DNA from: Planctomycetes bacterium UBA1662
GTDB taxonomy: Bacteria > Planctomycetota > UBA8108
Direction: 5' to 3'
DNA: 64,000 nucleotides
Assembly (NCBI GenBank): GCA_002320775.1
Contig: DCKY01000187.1
Coordinates: 7,161 to 71,160 of the forward strand
The notes under the pieces were generated by a model. The model did no database searches, had not been told where the DNA came from, and saw nothing but the letters and a program-made list of their open reading frames with translations. Below, piece after piece: positions 51,033-63,866 of the stretch (positions are counted from its first letter, which is position 1; every line of letters begins with the position of its first letter). A program made the translations under genes and the position numbers.

Positions 51033-51107
51033 GGACCGGAGGATACCTGCACACGCCTGTTTTTTTCATCAAGATTTCGAGAAGAGACACCTCGAAGACG
51101 CACTTTC

Positions 51108-51776
51108 TCACGCCTCGAAGTAGCGTTTGAGCCGTCCCCGCGCATCAAATTTCCGGGCGGCCTTTTCGATCGAGGCTCGGCCGAGCCGAGGCAGCCACTC
51201 GAGCTCAGCGGTTACCTTGACGTCTCCATATTTCTCGATGGCGGCCTTGTTCTCCTTGTCCCTGGGACCGACCATGACGACCCCCGCGAGCTCCAGCTCC
51301 CGCTTGCGGAGCGCCTCAAGACTCAACAGGGTGTGGTTGATCGTTCCCAGCCCGCTTCTTGCAACCAGCAGGCAGGGCAGGCGCATGTCCTGGAGCAGGT
51401 GGGAGAGGAGGTAGCCCTGGTCCGTGATTGGCACGTGGAGGCCTCCGATACCCTCGACTACCAGGTTGCGGCGGGGATCATCGAGGGCATGCTGCACAAG
51501 CTTTCCAAGGACCAGCTCGGGGTCGATCGGCCTGGATGCCAGGCGCGCCGCGAGATGAGGTGAGACGGGAGGATCATAAAGGTAGGCCTCCTCGAGTACC
51601 TCGACCCGGTGCCCGACCCATTTGCGGACGAGCCCGGTGTCGGTGTCGCCATCGGCGCCGGTGGCCAGGGGTTTCCAGTATGCCAACCTGCGGCGCCGGG
51701 CGTAGCGGGCCAGCACAACAGCGCTGACAACCGTCTTCCCAACCTCGGTATCCGTCCCGACGACAACCAGGCTCAT
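51108..51776 (-). CDS. bioD: Dethiobiotin synthetase.
   Basis: It has the P-loop GTDTEVGKT. Its start overlaps the bioF stop in an ATGA. Confidence 0.85.
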   Translation of the reverse strand: MSLVVVGTDTEVGKTVVSAVVLARYARRRRLAYWKPLATGADGDTDTGLVRKWVGHRVEVLEEAYLYDPPVSPHLAARLASRPIDPELVLGKLVQHALDDPRRNLVVEGIGGLHVPITDQGYLLSHLLQDMRLPCLLVARSGLGTINHTLLSLEALRKRELELAGVVMVGPRDKENKAAIEKYGDVKVTAELEWLPRLGRASIEKAARKFDARGRLKRYFEA

Positions 51777-52912
51777 ATCGTCTCCTTCCAGGCGAGGAGC
51801 TCGAGCAGCGCCGAGGCCAGCCGGTCGATGTCGCCTTCGCTATGGTTCGCATGTACGGAAATCCTCAATCGTGAGCTTCCTGGCGCGACGGTCGGGGGGC
51901 GTACGGCGCGGACATCGAGTCCGGCCTGCTGGAGCCGGTCGGCGGCCTCCAGCGCATCCTCATTGCCGCCTACGAGCACCGGCACGATGGGGCCGCTGCT
52001 GCCTGAGCAGTCCAGCCCCCCGGCGGCGAGGGCATCCCGCAGTCTCCGGGCCAGCGAGTGAACCCGGGCACGGGGTTCAGGGTCGGCGCAGAGCTCGAGC
52101 CCCGCCGCCATCATTGCCAGCAGCAGGGGTGGTGTCGCGGTGGTGAAGATGAAAGGTCTTGAGCGGTTGACGAGCCACTTTACCAGGGTGTCTGAGCCGG
52201 CGACAAACGCGCCGAAGCCGCCGAGGGCCTTGCCGAAGGTCGAGACGATGGCGGTGCAGCGCCCCTCGATGCCGTATTCTTCCGCGAGCCCGGAGCCGCG
52301 TTTGGATCCGAAAAGGCCGGTGGCATGAGCGTCGTCGACCAGGAGCGAGGCGGAATATTCTTCGGCCAGGGCCGCGTAGCGCTCCAGGGGCGCGATATCT
52401 CCATCCATGCTGAAGTAGCTCTCGGTCACGATGAAAGTTCTGCCGCCAGGGTGTGGACGGGCTAATTCCTGCTCTATGTCGTCAATGTCCAGATGGGGAA
52501 AGATGTGTTTCCGGGCTCCGCTGAGGCGCAGGCCGTCGATGATGCTGGCGTGGTTGAGCTCATCGGAGAGGACCCTGTCCTGGGGGCCCAGCAGCGAGGT
52601 CAGCAGGCCAAGGTTGGCCTGGTAGCCGGTTGGAAAGATGAGGGCCGCCTCGGCGCCCTTGAACTCGGCTAGCTTTTTCTCGAGCTCGAGATGGGCAGGG
52701 TGAGTTCCGCGCAGCAGCCGTGAGGCAGGGGCGGACAGGTTGTCTTCATCCAGTCCCGCGCGGATTCTCTCCCTGAATCGTTCAGCGGTTGAGAATCCAA
52801 GGTAGTCATTCGAGGTGAAATCGATTCCTCCTCCGGGCTGGAGAGTTCTTTCCAGCCCCTCCGCTTCAATATTCTCCAGGGCGTCTTGAAGGGATTTTTC
52901 GAGGTCGCTCAT
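51773..52912 (-). CDS. bioF: 8-amino-7-oxononanoate synthase.
   Basis: It is an alpha-oxoamine synthase family member with a PLP Lys block. Both ends are translationally coupled to bioB and bioD. Confidence 0.8.
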
Positions 52913-53901
52913 GACTCGCCGGCGACGGGCGCGGCGGAGTCCTTGCGCGGACGCATCCCAAGGCTTTCGAGAAGTTTCTCATCTTCATTCTCGCTTGGGT
53001 TGGCCGCGGTCAGAAGCGTTTCTCCCGCGAAGATGGAGTTGGCTCCGGCGAGGAAGCAGAGCGCCTGGGCCTCGGTCGACAGGTCAATTCGTCCGGCGCT
53101 GAGGCGGACCATAGAGCCCGGCATCATGATGCGCGCGCAGGCGACAGTGCGGACCATCTCAAGGGCTTCGATGGGCTCCTGTTTTTCCAGCGGGGTGCCC
53201 TCGATCGCCATGAGCGCGTTGATCGGTACGCTCTCGGGATGGGGGTCGAGCTCCGAGAGTACGCAGAGCATCTCCAGCCGGTCGGAGATGCTCTCGCCCA
53301 TGCCGATGATTCCTCCAGAGCAGACGGTGATGCCTGCGCTGCGAACATTCTTGATCGTGTCGAGCCTGTCCTGGTAGGTCCTGGTGGTGATGATCTTATC
53401 GTAGTATTCCGGCCCCGTGTCGAGGTTGTGGTTGTAGGCGCTCAGGCCGGCCTCAGCGAGCCGCTCTGCCTGTTCCGGGGTGACCATCCCCAATGTGCAG
53501 CAGGCCTCCATGCCGAGTTCCCGTACGCCGGTGACCATCTCGAGAACCTTGTCGAAGTCTTCACCATCGGCGACCTCCCGCCATGCGGCGCCCATGCAGA
53601 AGCGGCTTGCTCCGTTGGCATGCGCTTTCTTTGCCGCGCTGAGGACCTGGTCTACCGCCAGGAGAGGTTCACGCTCGACCGCGGCCTCGTGGTGGGCGCT
53701 CTGAGGGCAATAGGCGCAATCTTCCGCGCAGCCGCCTGTCTTGATGCTCAGGAGACTGCAGATCTGGACTTCGCAGGGGTTGTGAAATGCGCGATGGATC
53801 GTCTGGGCCTGGAAAAGAAGCTCAGGGACGGCCTGTTCGTAGAGCTCCCGGGCTTCTTCCAAGGTCCAGTCATGACGTGTGGAGGGTTGATTTTCTGTCA
53901 T
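52909..53901 (-). CDS. bioB: Biotin synthase.
   Basis: It has the radical SAM motif [11 protein letters not shown], plus downstream Cys residues for the auxiliary cluster. Confidence 0.95.
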
Positions 53902-54023: not shown

Positions 54024-55433
54024 ATGATGCGTGAAACAAAATCGGCACCAAGACTGCACCGATCGATCTGGTATATGGGCGCCAAGTCCCGTCTGATCCC
54101 GGGTTTTCTCGAGCGAGTGCTGGCCGATGAGCTTCCTCCCGGCGCTACCTTTGTCGATCTTATGAGCGGCAGCGGCGTTGTCAGCGCCTGGTGCGCCGGC
54201 ATGTACCGGGTCATCTCAAACGATGTGCAGAGCTATTCCGCCGTGATCGCCCGAAGTCTCATCGGTCATTCTCCCGGGACGCGGGATGATTTTCTTTCAG
54301 CGCTCGATCCCGAGGCCGATCTCTTGAGGGTCTACGAGGAGAACTATGCCCGGCTGGCGGGGTATTACGGGGCCGCTCTCGAAGAGGAGGCCGGCTTTCT
54401 GGACGCCTATGAAAGCGGGCGGGCAGATGAAGCCTGGGCGGCAGGCTACAGGGAGTATCTCCATGCGTCCGCGGCGCTCTATCCGGGAGTCGCTGAGGCG
54501 AGTGTCGCCGAGCCTTTTCGAAGCGCCCTGCCCCTGCTGAGGGACAGGAAGGCTGCAGCGGGAAACCCGGCTTGTCTCGCGGCCACCTACTACTCAAATG
54601 TATACTTTGGCCTTCACCAATCTCTGCAGCTTGATTCGATCAGGGCGGCTATCGACGCTGTCGATGAAGGGGACCCCTGGCGTGAGCTCAAACAGACCCA
54701 CTACCTGAGTGCCCTGCTGCATGCGGCCTCCGTTTCCACTTCGGGCACCAGCCACTTCGCCCAGCCCCGCCATCTCTCCAAGGATAGCGAGCTGCAGGCC
54801 ATGGCCAAGCGCCGCCTGACGGACATCCGGGAGTCGCTGTTGGAGTACAGCGCCGCGATCGCCCAGACCGTTCGAGAGACGGTATTTACCGAGGGAAACC
54901 AGGTCTTCAACTCGGATTATCGCGAGCTTCTCGATGAGGATGGTGTCTTTCAGCTTCCCGAAGGTCCCGGGCTGGTTTATCTCGATCCGCCCTATACGGC
55001 TGACAATTACTCGAGGTTCTACCATGTGCTTGAGGTGATCACGCGCTATGACTATCCCGAGCTGAAGCGGGGCCGTAACGGCAAGATCCTGCGGGGCCGC
55101 TACCCGGTGCTCGCCCACCGCTTCCGTTCGGACTTCTGCAGCCCGGCGAAGGTAGAGGGTGAATTCCGGATGGTCTTGCGGGCTGTTGCCGCCAGTGGAG
55201 CCAAGCTGGTGATCAGCTATTCATCACCAACCGGTCTGCTGCTGAAGGAGTTTGTCCGCCAGGATTCGAGCGAGCCGCTCGAGAGGTTGAGGCGGCTGTG
55301 TGAAGATTTCTTCGAGGGGGTCGAGATCCTGAAGCGGCCGACGATGCACTCCGGCCAGGGGGATTCGAATATCGCCATCGATGAGCTGCTGGTGGTCTGC
55401 AGCCGGCCTCACTCGCGCAGCCGGGCCTGGTAG
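54024..55433 (+). CDS. DNA adenine methyltransferase, Dam/D12-class-like, with an enlarged insert. Orphan.
   Basis: Motifs are WYMGAKSRLIP, FVDLMSGSG and VYLDPPYTADNY. At 469 aa it is longer than a typical Dam, which is about 280 aa. Confidence 0.65.
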   Translation: MMRETKSAPRLHRSIWYMGAKSRLIPGFLERVLADELPPGATFVDLMSGSGVVSAWCAGMYRVISNDVQSYSAVIARSLIGHSPGTRDDFLSALDPEADLLRVYEENYARLAGYYGAALEEEAGFLDAYESGRADEAWAAGYREYLHASAALYPGVAEASVAEPFRSALPLLRDRKAAAGNPACLAATYYSNVYFGLHQSLQLDSIRAAIDAVDEGDPWRELKQTHYLSALLHAASVSTSGTSHFAQPRHLSKDSELQAMAKRRLTDIRESLLEYSAAIAQTVRETVFTEGNQVFNSDYRELLDEDGVFQLPEGPGLVYLDPPYTADNYSRFYHVLEVITRYDYPELKRGRNGKILRGRYPVLAHRFRSDFCSPAKVEGEFRMVLRAVAASGAKLVISYSSPTGLLLKEFVRQDSSEPLERLRRLCEDFFEGVEILKRPTMHSGQGDSNIAIDELLVVCSRPHSRSRAW

Positions 55434-56527
55434 CCTGCCGCTTCGAGCTCTTCAAGGGCCTGCAGGGCCTGCTCTCGCGTGCCAAAGGCTATGCGGACAC
55501 TCCCGGTCTCTCCTTCACGAACCTTGACGACGCTCATGTCCTTGATGTTGAGGCCCTTGCTGTAGAGGTGTCCGGATATGTCGGCGATCATCCCGGGGCG
55601 GTCTTCAACGACCACCCTGAGGTCCCAGAGCCGTGTGAGGAAGCCCTTGGTGTCCCGGGGAAGAGCCGAGCGTGTCTTGCGAGCTTTTTCGAAGCTCTGC
55701 TCAAGGTCTTCGATATCAAAGTCCCCGATTCTCTCTGAGAGCCGCTGGTTGAATTTTTCCAGGAGACCGCGAATCTCCGCTGTATTACTGGAGAGAATAT
55801 CCTTCCAGATAGCGAAGGGACTAGAGGCGATTCTCGTCATATCGCGAAAGCCCCCAGCGGCCAGGTGGACGGCTTTCTCGCTGTCATCGCCGAGTTCATC
55901 GAGGGAGTTGACCAGCTCGACAGCCAGGATCTGCGGCAGGTGGCTGATGGCGGCGGCGATCAGGTCGTGCTTCTGCGGCGTCAGCACGATCACGCGGGCT
56001 CCGGTGAGCGAGATGAAGGCGCCGAGCCTCTGGACCTCGGGAGACTCTTCACCGCTGGGCGGGGTGAGAACGTAGATGGCATTTTCAAAGAGAAGCGGGT
56101 CGGAGGCCTGCACTCCCCGTTCCTCGCTCCCTGCGAGAGGATGCCCGCCAATAAAGTGAACGGTTTCAGGGAGCGCCTTCTCGGCGGTCTCCATGATCTC
56201 GCGCTTGGTGCTGCCAACGTCCGTGATGACCGTTCCGTCGCCGAGATCCCGGCCCATCTTCCCGAGCTCTTCGAGCAGCTCGATGATCCTGTTGATCGGC
56301 GTTGCCAGGATGATGAGCTCGGACCGCGCCGCGGCCTCACCCAGTCGTTCATAGGGAAGGCCTTCATCTATCAGGCCTTTGCGAAGGGCCTCTTCGATCG
56401 GTTCAGGCCGGCTGATACCGAGGATCCGTCCCTGGAAGCCGCGCTTGCGCAGGGCCATGGCGAAGGATCCGCCGATCAGGCCGACGCCGACGATGGTGAT
56501 GGTCTGGTAGTTTTTTGTTTCAGGCAT
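55409..56527 (-). CDS. tyrA: Prephenate dehydrogenase with a C-terminal ACT domain.
   Basis: It has the NAD-binding motif IVGVGLIGGSFAMAL, and a C-terminal ACT-like segment. Confidence 0.85.
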   Translation of the reverse strand: MPETKNYQTITIVGVGLIGGSFAMALRKRGFQGRILGISRPEPIEEALRKGLIDEGLPYERLGEAAARSELIILATPINRIIELLEELGKMGRDLGDGTVITDVGSTKREIMETAEKALPETVHFIGGHPLAGSEERGVQASDPLLFENAIYVLTPPSGEESPEVQRLGAFISLTGARVIVLTPQKHDLIAAAISHLPQILAVELVNSLDELGDDSEKAVHLAAGGFRDMTRIASSPFAIWKDILSSNTAEIRGLLEKFNQRLSERIGDFDIEDLEQSFEKARKTRSALPRDTKGFLTRLWDLRVVVEDRPGMIADISGHLYSKGLNIKDMSVVKVREGETGSVRIAFGTREQALQALEELEAAGYQARLRE

Positions 56528-56620: not shown

Positions 56621-59600
56621 TCAACTCAGCAGGGGACCGTCGAGACCTTTTTCTTCCAGCGGCTCCTCGAAACGAATGGAGTATTGGCCAGGCGCCTTGC
56701 GGGCAATCACCCTGGCGCGGATCTTCGTATCCGACTCAGCGAGAACGATCTTGAGGTCCTGTCCGGGGAGCAGGTCCTGCTTCGTGGAGACCATGGCGCC
56801 GTTGCGGCTGACGTTGACAACCATGGCCTCGAGGATCTCATCCTGCCTGAGAAGGGAGGCCCGCAGCCTGGGCTGGACGGTTCCGCCGGTGTTGGCATTG
56901 GCCAGCAGCTCGATTCCTCCATCCTGGTGCATTCGGACCAGGTCGCCGGTTTTGATACTGCTGGTGGCGTTCTCGACGCCAACGATCGCCGGAACGTTGA
57001 TCTCTCTGGCGAGGATCGCGGCATGGCTGAGCCGTCCGCCGACCTCGGTGATCAGGCCGGCCGCGCGGCTGAAGACGGGGGTCCAGGATGGATCGGTAAA
57101 CCTTGCGACCAGGATCTCGCCATCCTTGAACGATTCTATCTCCGCTGGGCTGTTCAGTACGCGGGCGGCTCCCAGCGCCCAGCTGTCACCGGCAACGACC
57201 AGCCCCTTGAGGTCGGCGGAGCTGGTTCGGAGCTGTTCGGATGCCGGGGCGGGATCGAGTTTTTCAAGGTCGGTCATGGAGAGCTTCGTCTTCAGGGTGA
57301 TTTTTGAGAAGAGCTCGCCTTCTTTCAGGCGTTTCGAGGCGAGGGCTCGCAGCGGGGCGCTCGCGGCAGCGGCATCGATGCCGTCGAGCTCTTCAAGCTT
57401 AAGCTGGAAGATCTTTCCATCCATCTCGAGGCGGTTGTCGAGCTCCAGCAGCAACCGGCGCAGGAGTGCGAACTCGCGCAGGCAGTGATGCTTCGCCTCC
57501 TCCTTGAGGCTCTGGAACTGGCTGGCCCGCTCGGCAGCTATCGAGGCGATGGAAGATGATGCCTCCCGGGCCTTGTTCCCGGTGCTGAAGGGGGAGTGGT
57601 CTTCGCTGGAGGCCATCTCCACCAGGCCGGCTAGCAGCGCCGGGTCTTCATTGTAGCGTGGGCTCGAGAGCTCATAGTCATGGATGGATCGATGGCCGTA
57701 GAGTTCGATGAAATCAGCGGAATCACGTTCGCCGCGCTTGATCGCGGGAAGCAGCTCAAGGGCTTGCCGGACGATGGTTTGCGGACCTTCTGGAAGCACC
57801 GGTACCTTGCCGCGGATTGCGCGTTCAGCCGAGCGCATGTAGAAATCCGCCGCGATGTTGATCAGCTCAACCTGGACATGTGTTCGTGTCCGGAGGTCCT
57901 CGCGCCATTGCCTGAAGAGTTCCAGCAGCTCAGATGTTTCGAGCCGGGACAGATCGATGGCTTCGCGTATTTTGAGCTCACGCAGGTACCCGGGGAGGAA
58001 GCCTTCCTGGTAGTTCTGCTTGAGCCTCCAGGCATCCCGGGTGAGGCGGAAGGAGGCGATAAGACCGGGTCCGCTTGCCGAGCGCCTCTTCTCCACCGGG
58101 CGGTTGATATAGAGGTGTCCGAATACCGAGATCAGCAGCTCGGCCCCCTCTTCCTCCGCCTCGTAGGGGATGCCGAGGATTCTGCAGGCAAGGTCTGTGC
58201 TGCCGCCAGGTTCCCAAAGCGATCGCATGAGGGAGAGGCTCAGGGGGGTAGGGCGGGGGAGCAGCTCGGACAGCTCGTTCTGGTAGAGGGCCGTTCCGGA
58301 TTCTTCCGGGGCTCCACTTTCCACAGCCAACTCGAGCAGGCGTCTGCGCTCGATCTCGAAGGCGGCCTGCGGCTTGCCTTCATGTTCGTTCGAGAGCCGG
58401 GTGGTTACGTCTCGGGCCTGGAGAATGGTGAACTCCCCGTCCCGGCAGGCCCACTCGATATCCTGCGGAGTTCCGAAGAGCTCTTCGATTCGGGTGCCGA
58501 GCTCGATCAGCGGAGTGAGATCGAGCGGGGAGCAATGTTTATCGAGCTTACGTCCGCTGAAGCGGCCGTAACGGAACGAGGATGGGTTGGCGGCGCCGCT
58601 GACAAGCGCCTCGCCAAGACCCTCGACCATTTCAACAAGCATGCTCCCCGTCTCTCTCGGGTGCTCGGTAAAGAGCACCCCGGCGTATTCGGCGGGAACC
58701 ATCTTCTGGACGATGATCCCGCCTCGCTCCCCGGCCCCGAGGCCGTAGGAACTCACCCGTCCACCGTTTATTGACTCTTTGACCTTCTTGATGGCCGCGC
58801 CGAGCTTCTTCCATTCGACGTTCAGAACGGAGTCGAAGATGCCCGCGTAGCTCTTGTCGGAGCCGTCTTCGTTCAGGCCCGAGCTGCGCACGGCGGCTTT
58901 ATCGATGTCGGCCTCTTTCCATGCCGCCTCAAGCTCTCGCAGCAGCGAGGGCTCCAGCTTCATGTCCTGGCCGAGACTCTCGAGTAATTTCGCGCTCAGC
59001 ACAAAACCTCCCGGAACCGGGAGTCCCGCCCGGATCATGATGCCCAGGCGGGCGGCCTTATTTCCGCAGCCGCCGTGATGGGGGCAATCGGAAAGCCTGA
59101 CCATCGCACCATTGTCTTCTTCGTTCGTTGCGGAAGCGCTTTCCTGGTTGCCTGATCCGGGTGTGTCGAGGACCGTCGCGATCAGCAGGGTCTGGAGCAG
59201 CCCGGTGCCGATGCTGAGAACGAGATAGAAGTTTACGGCGGCGCTGAAGTTGTAGCTGATGGCGCAGAGCAGGACGGCGAGGGCGGAGCCTGTCAGCAGC
59301 CTTTTCCTTCTCGAGCCGCCCGCGCTCAGAACAACGTGCGCCAGCACCGCCGCGCCCAGGCAGATCGGGAGGGCCAGGAGAGGGTCGGGAGCCGAGAGAT
59401 CTGGTATCCATCCGAGGGCATCATTATTCGAGGACCCTATGGCGGTGATCGCGTTGCAGAACAGCAGCATCAGGAAGACCTGCAGGCCTGTGGCCAGGAG
59501 GTTGCGCACCGGAGTGATTCCGTGCTTCTTACGCAGGGAGTTGATGGCTCGCAGGAGCCGGTCGGGGTCATCCGCCAGCTTCTTCTTCAGCCTGGAGATT

Positions 59601-61051
59601 TTCGGCTCGAGCTTCCTGGCGAGGGCCTGGTCTTTTTCGGTTTTCAGCGCCAGGGGCAGCAGCAGGACTCTCAGCAGCAGGACACTGAGGATGATAGCAA
59701 TCGCTAGGTGACCGAAGAGTTCACGCAGCCACCCAAGGGTGATTTTGAATGGAGTCGAGAGGTAGCCGAGGAGGTCTCCACGCTGGGCCTGCTGCCATTG
59801 CAGCACATGCGGCCTGGCAGAGCTCGCCGGGAAGAACTCGTGAGGAACGGTATAGCGTCCGACGAACTCGTGCCCCCGACGACTCAGCTTGAGTCCCATC
59901 ACCTGGGCGTAAAACGAGCTGCGCTTGTCGTAGCACGGAATGATGATGGGGGTCTCGTAGGGAACCCGGGTGTCGAGAATGTTTTCGAGTTCGGCGGTCG
60001 TCATCTTTCGGATGGGAATGTTGATGGCGTCCGGCAGGCTTCCCTGCTCGAAGTCGGCTGCATAGCGAACGTCGACAAAAACGGCTCCGCTGGAGCCGAC
60101 GAGCTCTTCGACGGCCGACGTGTCAAGAAGCTTGTTCTTGTTGGTGAAGCCGGGGAGTCCACGCAGCGTTTTCACTCTTTTTCCGTTGGGCTGCAGGAGA
60201 GGGTAGCCCTCGGCTATCCATTTCTCATAGCCGCCTACCAGGAACCGGCATTCGTATCCAAGCTTCTTGAACTCTTCACAGAGCTCGGAGCTGCGATTGC
60301 CTGAATAGCACAGCAGGACTGACGAGGTTTCCTTTCCAGGGAGCTGCCCCGGGTCGTCCCTGAGATCAGGATAGCGTATTGCGAGAGATCCCCTGATCGA
60401 CCCCATCTCGATCTCTTCGGACTCGCGCACATCGATCAGGACGGGTTTCGAATTCTTCAGCAGTCCGGCGAGCTCTCCAGTGCTGATTCCGAGGGAGTGC
60501 GCCTGTTGCTGGCTGAAGGACAGCGTCCTCAGGTCGCTGTCTTCCTTGGTCGCTCCATTTTCTATCGAGGGCCGCAGCAGGTTTCTTCCCAGGCGTTCAT
60601 TGTCCTGGTCGACCGTTCTGCAGTATTGGAGGATGTTGGCCGTGATCGAAACAACGAACAGCGCCAGGAGGATCTTCAGAGCCCAGGATGGTACCCCGGT
60701 TTTCAGACCCGCATTTTCACCCGCAAGGTGATTGCGGCGGCGCTTATGAGCGAAAAGAATCCCTCCGGCCGAGACCGCGAGAAGGCCCAGGATCTGGCCG
60801 ACGCTGGCGAAAATACCGATGACCACATCAGGCGAGGGTATGGCCAGCAGGGGACCGCCGAGAAAGAGATTCAGCGCCAGCGCCCATACGATCGTCCAGC
60901 TGCCGAGGCCATCGAGAACCCGCGGCCCGGCGCTCTCTCGCGCGGGATGCTTCACCGATGTTGTATTGAGGGCCGCTTCAGTCAAGGTCGCACCTTTGAT
61001 CCAAGGCCCGGGAGTCCAGTGCCTTCCAGGCACGTCCTCGAGCTCCCGCAT
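56621..61051 (-). CDS. Giant membrane fusion protein (1476 aa): N-terminal TM segment, 2x rhodanese, YidC/Oxa1 insertase core, PEP-synthase-like ATP-grasp (PPDK_N-like), PEP-utilizers His swivel domain, C-terminal PilZ.
   Basis: Rhodanese loops are LLCYSGNRS and IIPCYDKRSS. The YidC blocks are LLLPLALKTEKDQALARKLEPKISRLKKKLADDPDRLLRAINSLRKKHGITP and ALGWIPDLSAPDPLLALPICLG. The E. coli YidC equivalents are LLPL..KQ..S..KMQ..QPKI..L..KYKDDPQ...KLYKE.GVNP and [20 protein letters not shown]. The PPDK_N-like blocks are GGCGNKAARLGIMIRAGLPVPGGFVLS and SGLNEDGSDKSYAGIFDSVLNV. The PEP-utilizers His block is GGRLSHAAILAREINVPAIVG. The PilZ-like tail is ASLLRQDEILEAMVVNVSRNGAMVS...IRARVIARK. Confidence 0.8.
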   Translation of the reverse strand: MRELEDVPGRHWTPGPWIKGATLTEAALNTTSVKHPARESAGPRVLDGLGSWTIVWALALNLFLGGPLLAIPSPDVVIGIFASVGQILGLLAVSAGGILFAHKRRRNHLAGENAGLKTGVPSWALKILLALFVVSITANILQYCRTVDQDNERLGRNLLRPSIENGATKEDSDLRTLSFSQQQAHSLGISTGELAGLLKNSKPVLIDVRESEEIEMGSIRGSLAIRYPDLRDDPGQLPGKETSSVLLCYSGNRSSELCEEFKKLGYECRFLVGGYEKWIAEGYPLLQPNGKRVKTLRGLPGFTNKNKLLDTSAVEELVGSSGAVFVDVRYAADFEQGSLPDAINIPIRKMTTAELENILDTRVPYETPIIIPCYDKRSSFYAQVMGLKLSRRGHEFVGRYTVPHEFFPASSARPHVLQWQQAQRGDLLGYLSTPFKITLGWLRELFGHLAIAIILSVLLLRVLLLPLALKTEKDQALARKLEPKISRLKKKLADDPDRLLRAINSLRKKHGITPVRNLLATGLQVFLMLLFCNAITAIGSSNNDALGWIPDLSAPDPLLALPICLGAAVLAHVVLSAGGSRRKRLLTGSALAVLLCAISYNFSAAVNFYLVLSIGTGLLQTLLIATVLDTPGSGNQESASATNEEDNGAMVRLSDCPHHGGCGNKAARLGIMIRAGLPVPGGFVLSAKLLESLGQDMKLEPSLLRELEAAWKEADIDKAAVRSSGLNEDGSDKSYAGIFDSVLNVEWKKLGAAIKKVKESINGGRVSSYGLGAGERGGIIVQKMVPAEYAGVLFTEHPRETGSMLVEMVEGLGEALVSGAANPSSFRYGRFSGRKLDKHCSPLDLTPLIELGTRIEELFGTPQDIEWACRDGEFTILQARDVTTRLSNEHEGKPQAAFEIERRRLLELAVESGAPEESGTALYQNELSELLPRPTPLSLSLMRSLWEPGGSTDLACRILGIPYEAEEEGAELLISVFGHLYINRPVEKRRSASGPGLIASFRLTRDAWRLKQNYQEGFLPGYLRELKIREAIDLSRLETSELLELFRQWREDLRTRTHVQVELINIAADFYMRSAERAIRGKVPVLPEGPQTIVRQALELLPAIKRGERDSADFIELYGHRSIHDYELSSPRYNEDPALLAGLVEMASSEDHSPFSTGNKAREASSSIASIAAERASQFQSLKEEAKHHCLREFALLRRLLLELDNRLEMDGKIFQLKLEELDGIDAAAASAPLRALASKRLKEGELFSKITLKTKLSMTDLEKLDPAPASEQLRTSSADLKGLVVAGDSWALGAARVLNSPAEIESFKDGEILVARFTDPSWTPVFSRAAGLITEVGGRLSHAAILAREINVPAIVGVENATSSIKTGDLVRMHQDGGIELLANANTGGTVQPRLRASLLRQDEILEAMVVNVSRNGAMVSTKQDLLPGQDLKIVLAESDTKIRARVIARKAPGQYSIRFEEPLEEKGLDGPLLS
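56624..56956 (-). other. PilZ-like domain at the C-terminus of the giant fusion protein.
   Basis: It has an RxxxR-like segment (LRRQDE) and D/SxSxxG-like segments (NVSRNGAMV), with beta-barrel periodicity. Confidence 0.45.
59176..59779 (-). other. YidC/Oxa1/SpoIIIJ insertase core domain inside the giant fusion protein.
   Basis: See the motif comparison to E. coli YidC TM2-TM3 given for the parent CDS. Confidence 0.65.
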
Positions 61052-61366
61052 TGCCTCGGTAAATTCCCCTGGCAGATACGGCTGCCGGGGCCAGCTAATA
61101 AATATTGAGCTTTCAGTAAAGTTCCAAAGTCCTGAATGCCGATCCTGAAAACAAGGTCCGCGAACTCTGCCGTTTCCGGGCGTCCGCTGGCCGATCCAGG
61201 TTGCTTCTTTTCATTGCTCCCGTTTTTGAGCAGGAAGGTTAGTTGACCACAACCTTCGGCAAACGCGAAAATCGTTTCCGCAAACTCTTTAAAAAACAGA
61301 GTTTATGGGAATGCGAGGCGCTTTACCGGACCTCGGGCAGGCTGGAAAGGACGGAATCCCGTCATC

Positions 61367-62845
61367 TCAGCCGGAGATGCTGTCCTGGAGCAGAGGGCGG
61401 TTCTGGCTGTACTGCCTGGAGTCAAGGGGCAGCTGGATGGTGAAGGTGGAGCCTTTTCCGGGCTCGCTGGAGACGTTGATATCTCCGCCAAGCAGCCGGG
61501 CGAATTGCCTGCTGACGCTTAGGCCGAGGCCGGCTCCGCCGTATTTGCGAGTGGAGGAACTGTCGGTCTGGGTGAATGGCAGGAAAATTTCCTCGTTCTT
61601 TTCCGGTGGAATTCCAATGCCTGTATCGATGATCTCGATCCTGATCATGGATGGTTCGACAGCCCCAGGCTTGCTGGCCTCTATGCGAACGGAGCCTTGA
61701 CTGGTGAACTTGATGGCGTTGTCGACCAGGTTGTTCACCAGGCGCTGAAATTCATCCGGAGCGGTATACATCACGGTATCGAGCTCGGGCTGCAGACGGA
61801 GCTCCAGCTCAAGACCCTTCTCTTTCGCTTTTTCTCTCCACCGGCTCTCGAGCCGGGTGAGAGTGGTGACCGGGTTGAGCGGTCCCAGCTCGAAGGCCAT
61901 GCTGCGTGATTCGATTCGCGCGATGTCGAGGATGTCATCGACGAGGGTTAGCAGAGACCGCGCACAGTTGCGAGCCTCATCGAGGAGCTCCGCGTCCTGT
62001 GGGGCGGCCGTCTCGTCTGCCTCGAGCGCGAGCTCGAGACAACCCAACACTCCGTTGATTGGAGTGCGGATCTCGTGGCTCATGTTCGCGAGAAACTGGG
62101 ACTTGACCTTGTCCGCCTGCTGGGCGACCAGGAGGGCCTCGGTCTTCTCTTTTATCTCGCGTTCGATCTTCTCGTAGGAGTCCTTGAGGTTGCCGCGCAT
62201 CTCGTTCATGGCCATGGCCAGGCTTCCGAGCTCGTCATTGGTTGTCGGCTCGATGGGGTCCTCGAGATCGCCGCTACCGATGCGGGTCGCATGGCGGGCG
62301 AGGTCGTCGACCGGGTCCAGCACGCTGCGCCGAAGGACCTTGCCAAGAACCAGCGCCAGCATGGCGAAGGTCAGGGCTGCGCCCAGCAGCAGCTGCCAGG
62401 TGCTTGCCGCGAGGAGCTTCTCAAGACGCTCGGTCGACAGGCCAATCTCTACGTCGCCGAGGATCTCGGTTCGTGATCCCACCTCGCGCAGCTGGACAGG
62501 AGCGTGGAAGACCTCCACGCCTCCATCTTCTTTTGAGATTTTCTTTCCGTAACGTGCGACGAGTCGCCGCTCGCCATCCGCCAGCTGCCTGACCTCGATA
62601 TAGGAGACGTGTGGATTGTCCCTCGTGGCCTTTTCGATGTAGGTCTCGAGATAGGGGAAATCGTTAGAGAGCAGGGTCTCAAGGCAGACGGCGGCTACGG
62701 TCTGAGAGAGGGTCTTACCGTTGTGGTCGAGGTCCTCTTGCAGGATCTGGTGCTCGCTTTTCAGAACCAGGACGATGGTCAGGATCGATGTGAGCACAAG
62801 GCTCCCCAGCACCCCGGTTCTTATCTTATTGCTGAGCTTTTTCAT
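61367..62845 (-). CDS. Sensor histidine kinase (TM segment, HAMP-like region, HisKA, HATPase_c).
   Basis: The H-box is MSHEIRTPINGVLG. The N, G1 and G2 boxes are NLVDNAIKFT, DTGIGI and GGAGLGLS. It has an N-terminal TM helix. Confidence 0.85.
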   Translation of the reverse strand: MKKLSNKIRTGVLGSLVLTSILTIVLVLKSEHQILQEDLDHNGKTLSQTVAAVCLETLLSNDFPYLETYIEKATRDNPHVSYIEVRQLADGERRLVARYGKKISKEDGGVEVFHAPVQLREVGSRTEILGDVEIGLSTERLEKLLAASTWQLLLGAALTFAMLALVLGKVLRRSVLDPVDDLARHATRIGSGDLEDPIEPTTNDELGSLAMAMNEMRGNLKDSYEKIEREIKEKTEALLVAQQADKVKSQFLANMSHEIRTPINGVLGCLELALEADETAAPQDAELLDEARNCARSLLTLVDDILDIARIESRSMAFELGPLNPVTTLTRLESRWREKAKEKGLELELRLQPELDTVMYTAPDEFQRLVNNLVDNAIKFTSQGSVRIEASKPGAVEPSMIRIEIIDTGIGIPPEKNEEIFLPFTQTDSSSTRKYGGAGLGLSVSRQFARLLGGDINVSSEPGKGSTFTIQLPLDSRQYSQNRPLLQDSISG

Positions 62846-62912: not shown

Positions 62913-63866
62913 TCAGGGCGCGGTGTTGGCCTCTCCGGCCCCAGAATTTCTGAAGAAGCCTCTCGAGCTCTCCATTCCCTCTCGCACAAAGTCATACTCG
63001 GAATCTTTGCAAGGGGCGAAGCCGGAGAGACTCTTCGAGAAGGTCTTCAGGATGTCGGGGTTGGTGGTTTTCAACAGGACATCCTGCAGGGCGATGAACT
63101 GGTTCTCGGCAATACCGCCGCGGGCCACCCAGGGCTTGGTGACGTTATCGAAGGCCTTCAGCTCGCGCAGCCCCTTCTCCTTGTACTTGGCGAAGGTACT
63201 CTCCTTGGCCGCGCCGGCATCGTACTTTCCATGGAGCACGGCGGCGACGACCTTGTCGTGGCGGCCGAGGTAGTCGAATTTTTCAAGGTCATTGGAGGTG
63301 ACGCCGGCCTCGACGAGCTCGGCCTGGGAGAGGTAGCGGCCAATGGTGCTGTTCTCATCGCCAAAGGCGAAGCTCTTTCCCCTGAGATCAGCAAGCGATC
63401 CGAAGGGGCTGTCTTCTCGAACGCAGATGATTCCATTGAAGCGCCGCTTCCCCTTGTTCTCCTCGATCGCCAGGAGCCGGACATCCGGGTTTCTATCCTT
63501 GGCGATAACGTAGGAGGCGGGGCCGAAGCGGACAAAATCGACTTCGTCGTTGATGAAGGCTCTCAGGGCGAGCTCGTAGGTTTTGTAGATCACAAGCTTG
63601 ATCTGCGGCGCGTCCTCGATACGGGTGGCGATCTCGTCCTCGATGTAGCGCAGCATCGGCTTGAATTTCTTGAACATTTCCGATGGCTTGTCGGAGGTGT
63701 AGACGCCGAAGGTCAGCGTCGGAATGCTCTCTGAGATGCTGGCTTCCGGCTTCGATTTCCCGGCCGAGCTGGGCTCGTTGAAGGCGAAGACGACCACCAG
63801 GATGGCGAGAACCGCGAGAACGGAAGAGGCAGTGGCAATATGCACGCGCGAGAGAGATTTAAACAT
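62913..63866 (-). CDS. PhnD/SsuA-like periplasmic substrate-binding protein (phosphonate/phosphate-type PBP fold), probable sensing partner of the adjacent kinase.
   Basis: It has a signal/TM anchor, then LTFGVYTSDKP...YELALRAF, which matches the PhnD-like pattern. The gene is 67 bp upstream of the kinase gene on the same strand. Confidence 0.6.
   Translation of the reverse strand: MFKSLSRVHIATASSVLAVLAILVVVFAFNEPSSAGKSKPEASISESIPTLTFGVYTSDKPSEMFKKFKPMLRYIEDEIATRIEDAPQIKLVIYKTYELALRAFINDEVDFVRFGPASYVIAKDRNPDVRLLAIEENKGKRRFNGIICVREDSPFGSLADLRGKSFAFGDENSTIGRYLSQAELVEAGVTSNDLEKFDYLGRHDKVVAAVLHGKYDAGAAKESTFAKYKEKGLRELKAFDNVTKPWVARGGIAENQFIALQDVLLKTTNPDILKTFSKSLSGFAPCKDSEYDFVREGMESSRGFFRNSGAGEANTAP

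What the first reader, a model, noticed from the sequence alone, without database searches (positions are those of the whole stretch)
56621..61051. Unusual fusion: YidC/Oxa1 insertase core, tandem rhodanese domains, a PEP-synthase-like phosphotransfer pair and a C-terminal PilZ domain.
One 1476-codon ORF joins all of these. It has an N-terminal membrane segment and two rhodanese domains that each keep an active-site Cys. It has a membrane-insertase core that matches YidC TM2-TM3 nearly motif for motif, with the GWIxDLSxxDP..LPI..G block. It has the ATP-grasp 'PEP/pyruvate-binding' domain and the phospho-His swivel domain (GGRLSHAAI) of PEP synthase and rifampicin-phosphotransferase-like enzymes, but no TIM-barrel PEP/pyruvate domain. 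It ends in a PilZ-like c-di-GMP-binding domain. I know of no described YidC paralog carrying a His-phosphotransfer module and a PilZ domain. The architecture suggests membrane protein insertion, or sulfur transfer, gated by c-di-GMP and/or phosphorylation. It is the strongest candidate in this window for an undescribed system.
Basis: partly seen in the sequence, partly recalled or inferred. Interest (0 to 1): 0.85.

Follow-up and report, generated by a model that had tools for sequence, protein, structure and literature searches.

The report
Rhodanese–YidC–dikinase fusion protein family
This is a real, single 1476-residue membrane protein that puts two sulfur-transfer domains outside the cell membrane and an ATP-driven phosphate-transfer enzyme inside it, joined by a copy of the YidC protein-insertion core; the same design recurs in over 200 bacterial species, I found no paper describing it, and its function is unknown.

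Summary
ORF 56621-61051 (-) encodes 1476 aa. Pfam hits above gathering score are Rhodanese x2, 60KD_IMP (YidC core), PPDK_N, PEP-utilizers and PilZ.

It is not a chimera. The colinear architecture occurs in 228 species genomes (Planctomycetota, Gamma- and Alphaproteobacteria, a cultured cyanobacterium, Brocadiaceae). It forms about 156 clusters at 50% identity, and no genuine split form was seen.

New findings:
- The C-terminal half is a complete rifampin-phosphotransferase (RPH)-type small-molecule dikinase. Residues for both half-reactions are conserved.
- The YidC groove residues matching E. coli R366 and Y517 are invariant.
- Topology places both rhodaneses in the periplasm, where YidC normally has its P1 domain. 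The kinase is cytoplasmic.
- This copy's PilZ keeps NxSxxG but lacks RxxxR, so c-di-GMP gating is doubtful here. 53 of 74 tailed relatives have both motifs.
- 83% of well-flanked loci carry a PhnD/PtxB/AioX-type binding protein and a HAMP transducer beside the fusion gene. That sensory pair also occurs without the fusion.

No paper on this architecture was found. I read it as a signal-regulated, membrane-spanning enzyme rather than the housekeeping insertase. The substrate is unknown. Interest 0.7.

The parts
56621..61051 (-). Whole ORF: 1476 codons plus stop. Possible alternative TTG start at 60983-60985.
60629..60895 (-). N-terminal membrane segments, aa 53-141. They comprise a signal-peptide-like or anchor helix (53-71), the nearly invariant AIPSPD motif (70-75), TMb (76-94, with invariant Q86), a positively charged cytoplasmic loop (HKRRR), and TMc (123-141).
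60488..60616 (-). Conserved periplasmic juxtamembrane segment, aa 146-188. Mean pairwise identity is 0.56, as high as the catalytic domains. Role unknown.
60176..60487 (-). Rhodanese domain 1, aa 189-292. The active-site loop C248-Y-S-G-N-R-S is invariant across the family. Predicted periplasmic.
59822..60136 (-). Rhodanese domain 2, aa 306-410. The loop is C373-Y-D-K-R-S: Y374 and R377 are invariant, C373, D375 and S378 nearly invariant. Predicted periplasmic.
59147..59770 (-). YidC/Oxa1 core, aa 428-635. It contains the EH1-like amphipathic helix, five TM helices and the C1 coiled-coil loop. R461 matches E. coli R366 and Y609 matches E. coli Y517; both are invariant in the family.
58397..59086 (-). 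ATP-grasp (PPDK_N) nucleotide-binding domain, aa 656-885. K665, R722 and S741 align with RPH-Lm Lys22, Arg117 and Thr136.
57212..58396 (-). Central RPH-type substrate-binding domain, aa 886-1280. K1183-E1184-x-x-K1187 aligns with the RPH-Lm Arg666-Glu667..Lys670 phosphate-transfer site. C956 is invariant.
56897..57211 (-). Phospho-histidine swivel domain (PEP-utilizers), aa 1281-1385. The carrier His is H1343 in GGRLSHAAI.
56624..56896 (-). C-terminal PilZ-like beta-barrel, aa 1386-1476. N-V-S-R-N-G is present, but the RxxxR motif is absent.
61367..62845 (-). Upstream neighbour: a sensor histidine kinase of 492 aa. Layout is TM, a periplasmic domain of about 120 aa, TM, HAMP, HisKA, HATPase. 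No receiver domain, and no response regulator in view.
62913..63866 (-). Exported PhnD/PtxB/AioX-family solute-binding protein (PF12974). This is the neighbour conserved next to the fusion gene across phyla.
61282..61304 (-). Perfect 7-9-7 inverted repeat (AAACTCT-N9-AGAGTTT) in the gap between the kinase and fusion genes. It is 100% conserved in a relative whose fusion protein is only 71% identical. Candidate operator or hairpin; membership in the system is tentative.

Best explanation
Shown. This is one genuine gene for an eight-helix inner-membrane protein, and it belongs to a conserved, obligately fused family. The order from N to C terminus is:
- a signal-like helix and two TM helices;
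- two catalytically competent-looking rhodanese (sulfurtransferase) domains on the periplasmic side, where YidC normally carries its P1 domain;
- a complete five-helix YidC/Oxa1 core that keeps the two hallmark groove residues;
- in the cytoplasm, a complete RPH/PigC-type 'small-molecule dikinase' made of an ATP-grasp domain, a central substrate domain and a swivel His;
- a variable regulatory tail. Here it is a PilZ that has lost RxxxR. Elsewhere it is canonical PilZ, PilZ+GAF/PAS, or absent.

Inferred. It is not the housekeeping insertase. I read it as a regulated effector enzyme that works across the membrane. ATP would be used to load H1343 with phosphate (ATP -> AMP + Pi + His~P). The swivel domain would then deliver the phosphate at the K1183/E1184/K1187 site to a hydroxyl-bearing, probably membrane-associated, non-rifamycin substrate. 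That substrate would be held at or handed to the cytoplasm-facing hydrophilic groove of the YidC core. The periplasmic rhodanese pair would carry sulfane sulfur as a Cys persulfide, thiosulfate being the classic donor.

The usual neighbours are a PhnD/PtxB/AioX-type oxyanion-binding protein and a HAMP transducer whose output varies (kinase, GGDEF-EAL or MCP). They most likely sense the periplasmic cue that the enzyme responds to, or that it produces, and tune its expression or activity.

The substrate and the physiological role are unknown.
For: Architecture and family:
- Pfam and NCBIfam hits.
- More than 120 colinear homologs.
- 228 species genomes, including cultured Lusitaniella coriacea and closed chromosomes CP070634.1 and OZ245050.1.
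- 156 clusters at 50% identity. Every short hit I read stops mid-way through the ATP-grasp, so those are fragments and not split genes.

Topology:
- Eight hydrophobic segments.
- Across 46 sequences the TMb-TMc loop has net charge +5.5, C1 +6.5 and C2 +1.4. The TMa-TMb loop is -1.0 and P2 is -2.1.
- There is no hydrophobic segment between aa 141 and 437.
- An AxA-like site precedes the invariant IPSPD motif.

YidC core:
- It aligns with E. coli YidC from EH1 to TM6.
- R461 = R366 and Y609 = Y517 are invariant. These are the two key groove residues according to PMC8920935.
- Foldseek rmsd is about 3 A to 6AL2, and TM-score is 0.71-0.74 to B. halodurans YidC.

Dikinase:
- Full-length structural match to RPH-Lm, E 9e-29.
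- K665, R722 and S741 align with Lys22, Arg117 and Thr136. K1183, E1184 and K1187 align with Arg666, Glu667 and Lys670. H1343 is invariant.
- The roles of those RPH residues, and the description of the RPH superfamily as 'small molecule dikinases' with diverged substrates, come from PMC4844700.
- The central domain is 45% identical across phyla, which suggests one shared substrate.

Regulation and context:
- Tail variants: PilZ, GAF, PAS or none.
- A binding-protein gene lies within 3.2 kb in 61 of 83 loci, and in 38 of 46 loci that have at least 5 kb on both flanks.
- Gene order and strand vary, but adjacency is kept.
- The transducer is a plain or hybrid kinase, HAMP-PAS-GGDEF-EAL, or HAMP-MCPsignal.
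- Precedent for PF12974 binding proteins acting as sensor partners or domains: AioX/AioS and TtrS/ThsS for tetrathionate and thiosulfate.
Against: - No experiment exists for any family member, and no substrate is identified.
- The model coordinates and PAE were not available to me. I could not check that the kinase active site faces the YidC groove.
- The sensory pair also occurs without the fusion: 0 of 4 sampled binding-protein homolog loci had it. In locus L084 a sigma-like gene sits in the same syntenic slot. The link may therefore be only transcriptional.
- Eight of 46 well-flanked fusion loci lack the binding protein.
- Rhodanese 2 has an unusual acidic residue in its loop (CYDKRS).
- Arg666 of RPH is a Lys here.
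- A strictly conserved YidC core could equally mean that protein insertion is retained.
Confidence: 0.4

Rival explanations
1. It is a client-specific YidC paralog. The core still inserts one or a few membrane proteins, possibly the neighbouring two-TM sensor kinase. The dikinase and PilZ tail would regulate or energise insertion, or phosphorylate the client. The periplasmic rhodaneses would replace P1 as a client-handling or persulfidating domain.
For: - The complete YidC core is present, with EH1, the C1 hairpin and invariant equivalents of R366 and Y517.
- E. coli YidC has a genuine rhodanese-domain partner, YibN, that stimulates insertion.
- The conserved neighbour gene encodes a membrane protein.
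Against: - A module of about 840 aa follows TM6 directly, where Gram-positive and planctomycete YidCs carry a ribosome-binding tail (my background knowledge). This probably hinders co-translational docking.
- YidC insertion needs no ATP.
- RPH-family enzymes act on small molecules, not proteins.
- YibN's rhodanese is cytosolic, whereas these are periplasmic.
- The sensory pair is commonly found without the fusion.
Confidence: 0.2
2. It is a transmembrane sulfur/redox receptor. The periplasmic rhodanese cysteines would act as sensors, through persulfidation or oxidation. Through the helical core they would switch the cytoplasmic dikinase on or off, and the dikinase would make a phosphorylated soluble signal or metabolite. 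In this reading the YidC fold is only a rigid membrane scaffold.
For: - The layout resembles a receptor: an outside domain, TM helices, then an inside enzyme with a regulatory tail.
- It shows constant synteny with sensory proteins.
- PilZ, GAF and PAS tails are swapped among members, as is typical of signalling enzymes.
Against: - A pure scaffold role does not explain invariance of the groove Arg and Tyr or of the C1 hairpin.
- No known receptor uses a YidC fold.
- Both rhodanese loops are conserved like catalytic sites.
Confidence: 0.2
3. It is a sulfur (or selenium) acquisition device. The binding protein would deliver thiosulfate or a related oxyanion to the rhodaneses. Sulfane sulfur would be passed inward through the membrane core, and the dikinase would activate it or its acceptor. 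This is analogous in concept to PspE or YeeE/YeeD thiosulfate handling, or chemically to selenide,water dikinase.
For: - PF12974 domains sense thiosulfate and tetrathionate in ThsS and TtrS.
- Periplasmic PspE turns thiosulfate into cellular sulfane sulfur.
- The binding protein gives a weak hit to a putative selenate-binding family: 81 bits against a cut-off of 250.
- The binding-protein family keeps Tyr, Ser-Thr and His invariants of the kind I recall binding the oxyanion in PhnD (the mapping onto PhnD is from memory and was not tested).
- C956 in the kinase central domain is invariant.
Against: - The YidC groove is closed to the periplasm in solved structures, and no transport of small anions is known for it.
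- No ABC permease or ATPase genes lie beside the binding protein, which sits with a transducer. That points to sensing, not uptake.
- The taxa are not restricted to sulfur oxidisers.
Confidence: 0.1
4. It is an artefact: an assembly chimera or a frameshift that joins a yidC-like gene to a ppsA-like gene.
For: None found. Only the prior that fusions of 1400 aa or more in metagenome-like sequence can be chimeric.
Against: - The same colinear architecture occurs in 228 species genomes, including an isolate and closed long-read chromosomes.
- There are 156 clusters at 50% identity.
- Every domain is under conservation.
- No split form was found.
- Composition is uniform across the gene.
Confidence: 0.01

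Closest known systems
YidC/Oxa1/Alb3 membrane insertases (E. coli YidC; B. halodurans YidC2)
   Same: - Five-helix core with the EH1 helix, the C1 coiled coil and the WIxDLSxxDP..LPI block.
- The groove Arg (R366) and Tyr (Y517) equivalents are present.
- The predicted fold superposes at about 3 A.
- A large domain sits between an N-terminal anchor and the first core helix, like P1.
   Different: - P1 is replaced by two rhodaneses.
- Two extra N-terminal TM helices are present.
- About 840 aa of cytoplasmic enzyme follow TM6.
- It scores below the NCBIfam yidC_oxa1_cterm cut-off, 68.9 against 84.3.
- It is found in only 228 of 185,579 species genomes, so it is unlikely to be the essential housekeeping copy.
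Rifampin phosphotransferase RPH-Lm and the wider RPH superfamily (PigC/RedH prodigiosin ligases, 'PRK06241 PEP synthase')
   Same: - Three-part layout: ATP-grasp, central substrate domain, swivel His.
- Residues for both phosphotransfer steps are conserved.
- Full-length structural match.
   Different: - It is far below every equivalog cut-off, for example 183 bits against 999 for rph and 211 against 1350 for RedH.
- The N-terminal part of the central domain has no detectable sequence similarity to RPH.
- Arg666 is replaced by Lys.
- It is fused to a membrane core. The substrate is almost certainly not rifamycin.
PEP synthase / pyruvate phosphate dikinase
   Same: ATP-grasp domain and phospho-His swivel domain, with the ATP -> AMP + Pi + His~P chemistry.
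   Different: No PEP/pyruvate TIM-barrel domain. An RPH-type domain takes its place.
E. coli YibN-YidC pair (a membrane-anchored rhodanese that binds YidC and stimulates insertion)
   Same: A rhodanese domain is physically associated with a YidC core. Here the two are fused in one chain.
   Different: YibN's rhodanese is cytosolic and single. Here there are two, predicted to be periplasmic. The fusion is therefore only a loose 'Rosetta stone' for that interaction.
Binding-protein-dependent sensor kinases with PF12974 partners or domains: AioX/AioS (arsenite), ArrX, TtrS/ThsS (tetrathionate/thiosulfate)
   Same: An exported PhnD-like protein is encoded beside a kinase that has a periplasmic domain and a HAMP.
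   Different: - The ligand is unknown.
- No response regulator is adjacent in the window.
- The transducer's output domain varies between lineages.
- The pair is coupled to the fusion gene only in a subset of genomes.
PilZ-regulated membrane enzymes (e.g. cellulose synthase BcsA)
   Same: A C-terminal PilZ barrel on a membrane-embedded enzyme. Many orthologs have both c-di-GMP motifs.
   Different: This copy lacks RxxxR. The regulated enzyme is a dikinase, not a glycosyltransferase.

Membership tests
YidC/Oxa1/Alb3 insertase family | Five-TM core matching the 60KD_IMP model | tested here: met
   Pfam 60KD_IMP scores 76.2 bits (GA 35) over model positions 2-161 of 163. Five hydrophobic segments lie in aa 449-628. 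However, NCBIfam TIGR03592 scores 68.9, below its cut-off of 84.3.
YidC/Oxa1/Alb3 insertase family | Strictly conserved positive residue in the hydrophilic groove (E. coli R366), plus the adjacent Y517 | tested here: met
   R461 aligns with R366 and Y609 with Y517. Both are invariant in 46 family members. Their significance is taken from PMC8920935.
YidC/Oxa1/Alb3 insertase family | YidC fold, including the cytoplasmic C1 coiled coil | tested here: met
   The AF2 model has pLDDT about 85-95 in the core. Foldseek gives 6AL2 rmsd 3.0-3.3 A over about 200 columns and 3WO6/3WO7 TMt 0.70-0.74. The C1 loop has net charge +6.5.
YidC/Oxa1/Alb3 insertase family | Membrane-protein insertase activity, or complementation of YidC depletion | not testable with these tools
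   This needs an experiment.
YidC/Oxa1/Alb3 insertase family | Being the genome's housekeeping yidC (rpmH-rnpA-yidC context, one per genome) | tested here: inconclusive
   The context here is binding protein, sensor kinase, fusion, tyrA, and not rnpA. The window holds no second YidC-like ORF. The rest of the genome could not be searched. The family's rarity, 228 of 185,579 species, argues against a housekeeping role.
RPH-type small-molecule dikinase superfamily | N-terminal ATP-grasp with the ATP-positioning Lys, Arg and Thr | tested here: met
   PPDK_N scores 114.6 bits. K665, R722 and S741 align with RPH-Lm Lys22, Arg117 and Thr136. K665 and R722 are invariant and S741 nearly so.
RPH-type small-molecule dikinase superfamily | C-terminal swivel domain with the catalytic His | tested here: met
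   PEP-utilizers scores 86.1 bits. H1343 in GGRLSHAA is invariant and aligns with the RPH-Lm His domain.
RPH-type small-molecule dikinase superfamily | Central substrate domain with the Arg/Glu/Lys phosphate-transfer motif | tested here: met
   K1183-E1184-x-x-K1187 aligns with R666-E667-x-x-K670, with Arg replaced by Lys. There is a full-length Foldseek match to 5HV1 at E 9e-29. Relatives carry a PF27448 Rph_4th hit.
Rifampin phosphotransferase proper (rph equivalog) | Score above the equivalog cut-off, and a conserved rifampin-binding site | tested here: not met
   NF041857 scores 183.3 bits against a cut-off of 999. NF000283 scores 126 against 1700. The N-terminal part of the central domain shows no sequence similarity to RPH.
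PEP synthase / PPDK | C-terminal PEP/pyruvate-binding TIM barrel | tested here: not met
   No such Pfam hit. TIGR01418 scores 178 against a cut-off of 739.75.
Rhodanese sulfurtransferases | Rhodanese fold with the catalytic Cys at the start of a six-residue active-site loop | tested here: met
   Two Pfam stretches. C248-YSGNR-S is invariant. In the C373-YDKR-S loop Y374 and R377 are invariant and C373, D375 and S378 nearly invariant. pLDDT exceeds 90. Foldseek matches thiosulfate sulfurtransferases and single-domain rhodaneses. Activity was not tested.
PilZ c-di-GMP receptors | RxxxR motif preceding the barrel | tested here: not met
   The aligned position reads NTGGTVQ in the window protein. 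A regex census puts the window protein and its closest relatives in the 'only [DN]xSxxG' class, whereas 53 of 74 tailed relatives have both motifs.
PilZ c-di-GMP receptors | [D/N]xSxxG motif and the PilZ beta-barrel | tested here: met
   NVSRNG is present. Pfam PilZ scores 29.5 bits (GA 22.5). Six beta strands are predicted in aa 1396-1461.
Binding-protein-dependent two-component sensors (AioX/AioS type) | Exported PF12974 protein encoded next to a kinase that has a periplasmic domain | tested here: met
   Phosphonate-bd scores 170 bits, and the protein has an N-terminal hydrophobic leader. The kinase is laid out as TM, about 120 aa, TM, HAMP.
Binding-protein-dependent two-component sensors (AioX/AioS type) | Cognate response regulator in the same cluster | tested here: not met
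   No receiver-domain gene lies between 51.7 kb and the end of the window. The window ends 134 nt beyond the binding-protein gene.

The most novel reading that the evidence does not exclude
The YidC fold has been recruited to handle a non-protein substrate in a 'phosphorylate, flip, thiolate' pipeline.
1. The cytoplasmic dikinase phosphorylates a hydroxyl on a membrane-resident amphiphile such as a lipid, isoprenoid or quinol-like molecule. This both activates it and gives it an anionic head.
2. The Arg-lined YidC groove moves that head group to the outer leaflet, as it does for acidic tails of small membrane proteins.
3. The periplasmic rhodanese persulfides then attack or exchange the activated group, which installs sulfur.
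4. A dedicated oxyanion-binding protein and transducer monitor the released or consumed oxyanion.

If true, this would be the first Oxa1-superfamily member working as part of an enzyme on a small molecule. It would also be a new kind of trans-membrane metabolic coupling.
Probability: 0.12. Interest if true: 0.9.

Novelty: new variant of a known kind. Interest (0 to 1): 0.7.

Why it matters
YidC/Oxa1 proteins are regarded as stand-alone or Sec-associated insertases. A conserved paralog welded to an ATP-driven dikinase on one side of the membrane and to sulfurtransferases on the other is unexpected. It implies either a regulated, client-specific insertion route or a use of the YidC groove that does not involve proteins.

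It also gives the RPH 'small-molecule dikinase' superfamily, most of whose substrates are unknown, a member with a fixed cellular address and a fixed sensory partner. That narrows the search for its substrate.

The family is present in a cultured cyanobacterium (Lusitaniella coriacea) and in abundant marine groups (Granulosicoccus, pelagic Planctomycetota). Genetics and biochemistry are therefore feasible.

The recent finding that E. coli YidC works with a rhodanese-domain partner, YibN, makes a natural rhodanese-YidC fusion of direct interest to that field, even though the compartment differs.

Tried and rejected
1. Assembly chimera or frameshift. Rejected: colinear homologs occur in 228 species genomes and 156 clusters at 50% identity.
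2. Naturally split versions (rhodanese-YidC alone next to a separate kinase). All short database hits I read end inside the ATP-grasp domain, so they are fragments.
3. A clean Rosetta-stone link to YibN-YidC. Weakened, because YibN's rhodanese is cytosolic and these are periplasmic.
4. Downstream genes as partners (tyrA-ACT, D12 methyltransferase, bioB/F/D/A). They are syntenic only within the closest Planctomycetota relatives and are unrelated housekeeping genes.
5. Two apparent 'conserved neighbour' clusters (c3, c15) from my own ORF caller. These are antisense artefacts of high-GC genes. Cluster c4 is DNA polymerase I.
6. An exclusive link between the binding protein and the fusion. Rejected: four binding-protein homolog loci at 47-61% identity have the HAMP kinase but no fusion. 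L084 has a sigma-like gene in the same slot.
7. A sequence search of the N-terminal part of the central domain against PDB found only noise.
8. Foldseek against AFDB50 was not available. Model coordinates and PAE are not exposed, so inter-domain geometry could not be examined.
9. Rfam and tRNA scans of the window found nothing.
10. A second YidC-like, rhodanese or dikinase ORF in the window: none.
11. Literature searches for the architecture found nothing relevant.

Full report
**1. The observation**

The window has one uninterrupted ORF at 56621..61051 on the minus strand, encoding 1476 aa. Its GC content (0.59-0.62) matches its flanks.

Pfam gives five families above their gathering scores:
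- Rhodanese, two stretches, 74.9 bits.
- 60KD_IMP, aa 450-624, 76.2 bits.
- PPDK_N, 114.6 bits.
- PEP-utilizers, aa 1308-1374, 86.1 bits.
- PilZ, aa 1394-1467, 29.5 bits against a cut-off of 22.5.

There is no PEP/pyruvate TIM-barrel hit. One small open point is the start codon. The 92%-identical database protein P0002 starts at the position of a TTG at 60983-60985, not at the ATG at 61051.

**2. Not an artefact, and not unique**

A protein search returned more than 120 full-length proteins with the same colinear domain order at 41-92% identity. A scan of one genome per species found relatives in 228 species. These include:
- Planctomycetota.
- Gammaproteobacteria: Granulosicoccus, Chromatiales, Ectothiorhodospiraceae, Methylothermaceae.
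- Alphaproteobacteria: Rhodospirillales, Afifella, Rhodoplanes.
- Brocadiaceae.
- The cultured cyanobacterium Lusitaniella coriacea.
- Closed chromosomes CP070634.1 and OZ245050.1.

A filter-free search with the N-terminal half (aa 60-650) found 156 clusters at 50% identity with E <= 1e-30. Nearly all are 1260-1620 aa long. The short hits I read all run into the ATP-grasp domain and stop mid-domain, so they are fragments and not split genes. The fusion is therefore old and obligate. Source databases name it only generically, as 'YidC/Oxa1 family membrane protein insertase' or 'PEP-utilizing enzyme'. Seven literature searches found no description of it.

**3. Anatomy: the cytoplasmic half**

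NCBIfam's best matches to the C-terminal half are RedH/PigC prodigiosin ligases, 'PRK06241' PEP-synthase-like proteins and rifamycin phosphotransferase. All align from the ATP-grasp to the C-terminal His domain, and all score far below their equivalog cut-offs. The best solved relatives are the Listeria rifampin phosphotransferase entries, by sequence and by fold. The AF2 model of aa 430-1476 (pLDDT 83.7, pTM 0.77) matches 5HV1 over about 900 columns at E 9e-29.

Profile alignment to RPH-Lm can be read against the mutational study in PMC4844700. Both catalytic sites are kept:
- K665, R722 and S741 align with Lys22, Arg117 and Thr136 at the ATP site.
- H1343 is the swivel His.
- K1183-E1184-x-x-K1187 aligns with Arg666-Glu667..Lys670, the site of the second phosphotransfer.

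K665, R722, K1183, K1187 and H1343 are invariant in 46 diverse family members; S741 and E1184 are nearly invariant.

So this is not a bare 'phosphotransfer pair'. It is a complete RPH-type dikinase with its own central substrate domain of about 390 aa. That domain is 45% identical across phyla, which suggests a single conserved substrate. The substrate is not rifamycin: the equivalog scores fail, and the N-terminal part of the central domain has no detectable similarity to RPH.

**4. Anatomy: the membrane core**

E. coli YidC aligns from the EH1 amphipathic helix through TM6, aa 428-635. R461 corresponds to R366 and Y609 to Y517. PMC8920935 singles out these two residues as keeping the substrate groove hydrated. 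Both are invariant in the family. Both AF2 models place the core at pLDDT about 85-95. Foldseek superposes it on E. coli YidC at about 3 A rmsd and on B. halodurans YidC at TM-score 0.70-0.74. It is a divergent member: it passes Pfam, but scores 68.9 against the 84.3 cut-off of NCBIfam's yidC_oxa1_cterm model.

**5. Topology**

Hydropathy analysis finds eight hydrophobic segments: 53-71, 76-94, 123-141, 449-467, 518-536, 558-576, 588-608 and 610-628. There are none between 141 and 437.

In most homologs the first segment ends in an AxA-like site directly before a nearly invariant IPSPD motif. This looks like a signal peptide or signal anchor.

Averaged over 46 sequences, net loop charges are as follows:
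- TMb-TMc loop +5.5, C1 loop +6.5, C2 loop +1.4: cytoplasmic.
- TMa-TMb loop -1.0, P2 loop -2.1: periplasmic.

Given the canonical YidC orientation and an ATP-using C-terminal enzyme, both rhodanese domains (aa 189-410) and the conserved juxtamembrane segment (aa 146-188) must lie in the periplasm. This is exactly where YidC carries its P1 domain. It is an inference from sequence, not an experiment.

It also weakens an attractive link. E. coli YidC has a genuine rhodanese-domain partner, YibN, but YibN's rhodanese is cytosolic.

**6. The rhodaneses**

Both domains model at pLDDT above 90. They match thiosulfate sulfurtransferases and single-domain rhodaneses. The first loop, C248-x-S-G-N-R-S, is invariant. 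In the second, C373-Y-D-x-R-S, Y374 and R377 are invariant and C373, D375 and S378 nearly invariant. The two domains are among the most conserved parts of the protein, at 0.49 and 0.58 mean pairwise identity. Such loops are typical of sulfurtransferases rather than Cdc25-type phosphatases, which have a CX5R loop (my background knowledge). Periplasmic rhodaneses that use thiosulfate are known, for example PspE.

**7. The PilZ tail**

Pfam's match starts at model position 10, which is after the RxxxR element. In the family alignment the position of RRxxxR reads NTGGTVQ in the window protein, while NVSRNG ([D/N]xSxxG) is kept.

A census of 123 family proteins gave the following:
- 74 have a tail of at least 70 aa.
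- 53 of those have both motifs.
- 7 have only [D/N]xSxxG. These are the window protein and its closest relatives.
- 14 have neither.

Alpha-, gammaproteobacterial and cyanobacterial members mostly lack the domain, and some members add GAF and PAS. The tail is the least conserved module, at 0.23 identity. It is therefore an exchangeable regulatory add-on. c-di-GMP control is plausible for many orthologs but doubtful for this copy.

**8. Conserved neighbourhood**

In the window the fusion gene is preceded on the same strand by two genes:
- A sensor kinase at 61367-62845, laid out as TM, about 120 aa periplasmic, TM, HAMP, HisKA, HATPase.
- An exported PF12974 solute-binding protein at 62913-63866.

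The binding protein's nearest solved relatives are PtxB, PhnD, ArrX and AioX, all at sub-family scores.

Among 83 related loci, a homologous binding-protein gene lies within 3.2 kb of the fusion gene in 61. Among the 46 loci with at least 5 kb on both sides, it does so in 38, which is 83%. This holds in Planctomycetota, Gamma- and Alphaproteobacteria, Brocadiaceae and the cyanobacterium. Order and strand vary: 33 upstream on the same strand, 12 downstream on the same strand, 14 divergent and 2 convergent.

The gene beside the binding protein always has the membrane-sensor layout, but its output varies: plain kinase, hybrid kinase, HAMP-PAS-GGDEF-EAL, or HAMP-MCPsignal. The associated binding proteins form a tight family with many invariant residues, including Y56, Y97, S173-T174, H203 and K244-P-W246. 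PF12974 proteins or domains are known sensor inputs: AioX/AioS for arsenite and TtrS/ThsS for tetrathionate and thiosulfate.

The association is asymmetric. Four binding-protein homologs at 47-61% identity sit next to HAMP kinases with no fusion gene within 8 kb. One of them, L084, has the same synteny as the window (polA, binding protein, kinase, X, tyrA-ACT, D12 methyltransferase, bioB). In L084, X is a 225-aa sigma-factor-like protein instead of the fusion. The sensory pair is thus a general cassette, and the fusion is one of its optional partners.

The genes downstream in the window (tyrA, a methyltransferase and bioB/F/D/A) are unrelated housekeeping genes.

**9. How it most likely works**

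Shown: the architecture, the conservation of catalytic and groove residues, the family distribution and the synteny.

Inferred: the topology and everything about function.

My best reading (confidence about 0.4) is a regulated effector enzyme that spans the membrane:
- The cytoplasmic module uses ATP to load H1343. It then transfers phosphate at the K1183/E1184/K1187 site to a conserved, non-rifamycin, probably hydrophobic or membrane-associated hydroxyl substrate. Characterised RPH-family substrates include rifampin, and the closest NCBIfam models are the prodigiosin ligases PigC/RedH; these substrates are hydrophobic.
- The YidC core keeps a working hydrophilic groove that presents or passes the polar part of that substrate.
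- The periplasmic rhodaneses carry sulfane sulfur.
- The neighbouring binding protein and transducer, together with the variable PilZ/GAF/PAS tail, set when the enzyme is made or active.

Rivals:
- A client-specific insertase (0.2).
- A rhodanese-based redox/sulfur receptor that uses the YidC fold only as a scaffold (0.2).
- A sulfur or selenium acquisition relay (0.1).
- An artefact (<=0.01).

I could not examine inter-domain geometry, because model coordinates are not exposed and AFDB50 was unavailable.

**10. Novelty and verdict**

Every domain belongs to a known family. I found no described system that couples an Oxa1-family core to a dikinase and to periplasmic sulfurtransferases, and no paper on this family. 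I class it as a new variant of known kinds. I give about 12% to the possibility that it is categorically new, with a YidC groove acting on a small molecule in a phosphorylate, flip, thiolate pipeline.

Its interpretation is partly supported: right on the domains and on the lack of a described precedent, but wrong or incomplete on uniqueness, on c-di-GMP gating of this copy, on compartments, and on the nature of the kinase module.

Interest is 0.7. A YidC or RPH specialist would be surprised, and cultured hosts make the question testable. No function is yet demonstrated.

Noticed in passing
window 61282-61304 (gap between kinase stop at 61367 and fusion start at 61051): A perfect 7-9-7 inverted repeat, AAACTCT-N9-AGAGTTT, lies in a block of about 45 nt. 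The block is 100% conserved even in L006, whose fusion protein is only 71% identical. Several further conserved blocks follow it. The 315-nt spacer folds more stably than shuffled versions (z -2.7), and the repeat occurs once in the window. It may be an operator for the (unseen) regulator of the fusion gene, or a terminator/UTR hairpin.
   Followed up: partly
L084:12244-12921, compared with window 56621-61051: A related contig keeps the window's synteny: polA, binding protein, HAMP kinase, X, tyrA-ACT, D12 methyltransferase, bioB. In place of the fusion gene it carries a 225-aa protein with a sigma-factor region-4-like HTH. The slot after the sensory pair seems to hold alternative 'output' genes.
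   Followed up: partly
window 61367-62845 (-): The sensor kinase has no receiver domain, and no response-regulator gene is visible between 51.7 kb and the end of the window. The window ends 134 nt beyond the binding-protein gene, so the partner may lie just outside it.
   Followed up: no
window 60983-61051 (-): Start-codon ambiguity. The ATG at 61051 has GAGG only 2 nt upstream. The near-identical database protein P0002 starts at the TTG at 60983-60985. The first 50 or so residues are not conserved in the family.
   Followed up: partly
window 23650-29496 (+): A 1949-aa ORF combines three Lamin-tail domains, a CotH kinase domain and a NosD-like beta-helix region.
   Followed up: no
window 38725-43461 (+): A 1579-aa ORF has AAA_16 ATPase, TPR repeats, GAF and a Fis-type HTH_8. 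It is a large STAND-like transcriptional regulator.
   Followed up: no
window 37212-38684 (+): A BrkB/YihY-family membrane protein carries a C-terminal stretch that resembles an Rrf2-type regulator (29.5 bits, just under the 30-bit cut-off). This is an odd pairing if real.
   Followed up: no
window 49719-53901 (-) and 54024-56527: A biotin operon (bioA, bioD, bioF, bioB) lies downstream. A 469-aa D12-class adenine methyltransferase (+ strand) converges on tyrA-ACT and overlaps it by 25 nt. This block is syntenic only among the closest Planctomycetota relatives.
   Followed up: partly
protein P0170 (859 aa): One family member switches, after the ATP-grasp motif, into an EAL-domain-like C-terminus (…DDFGTGYASLSYL…). 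It is either a chimeric or frameshifted contig or a rare variant that links the family to c-di-GMP turnover.
   Followed up: no
window 1-64000: No tRNA genes and no Rfam family at gathering score anywhere in the 64 kb.
   Followed up: yes
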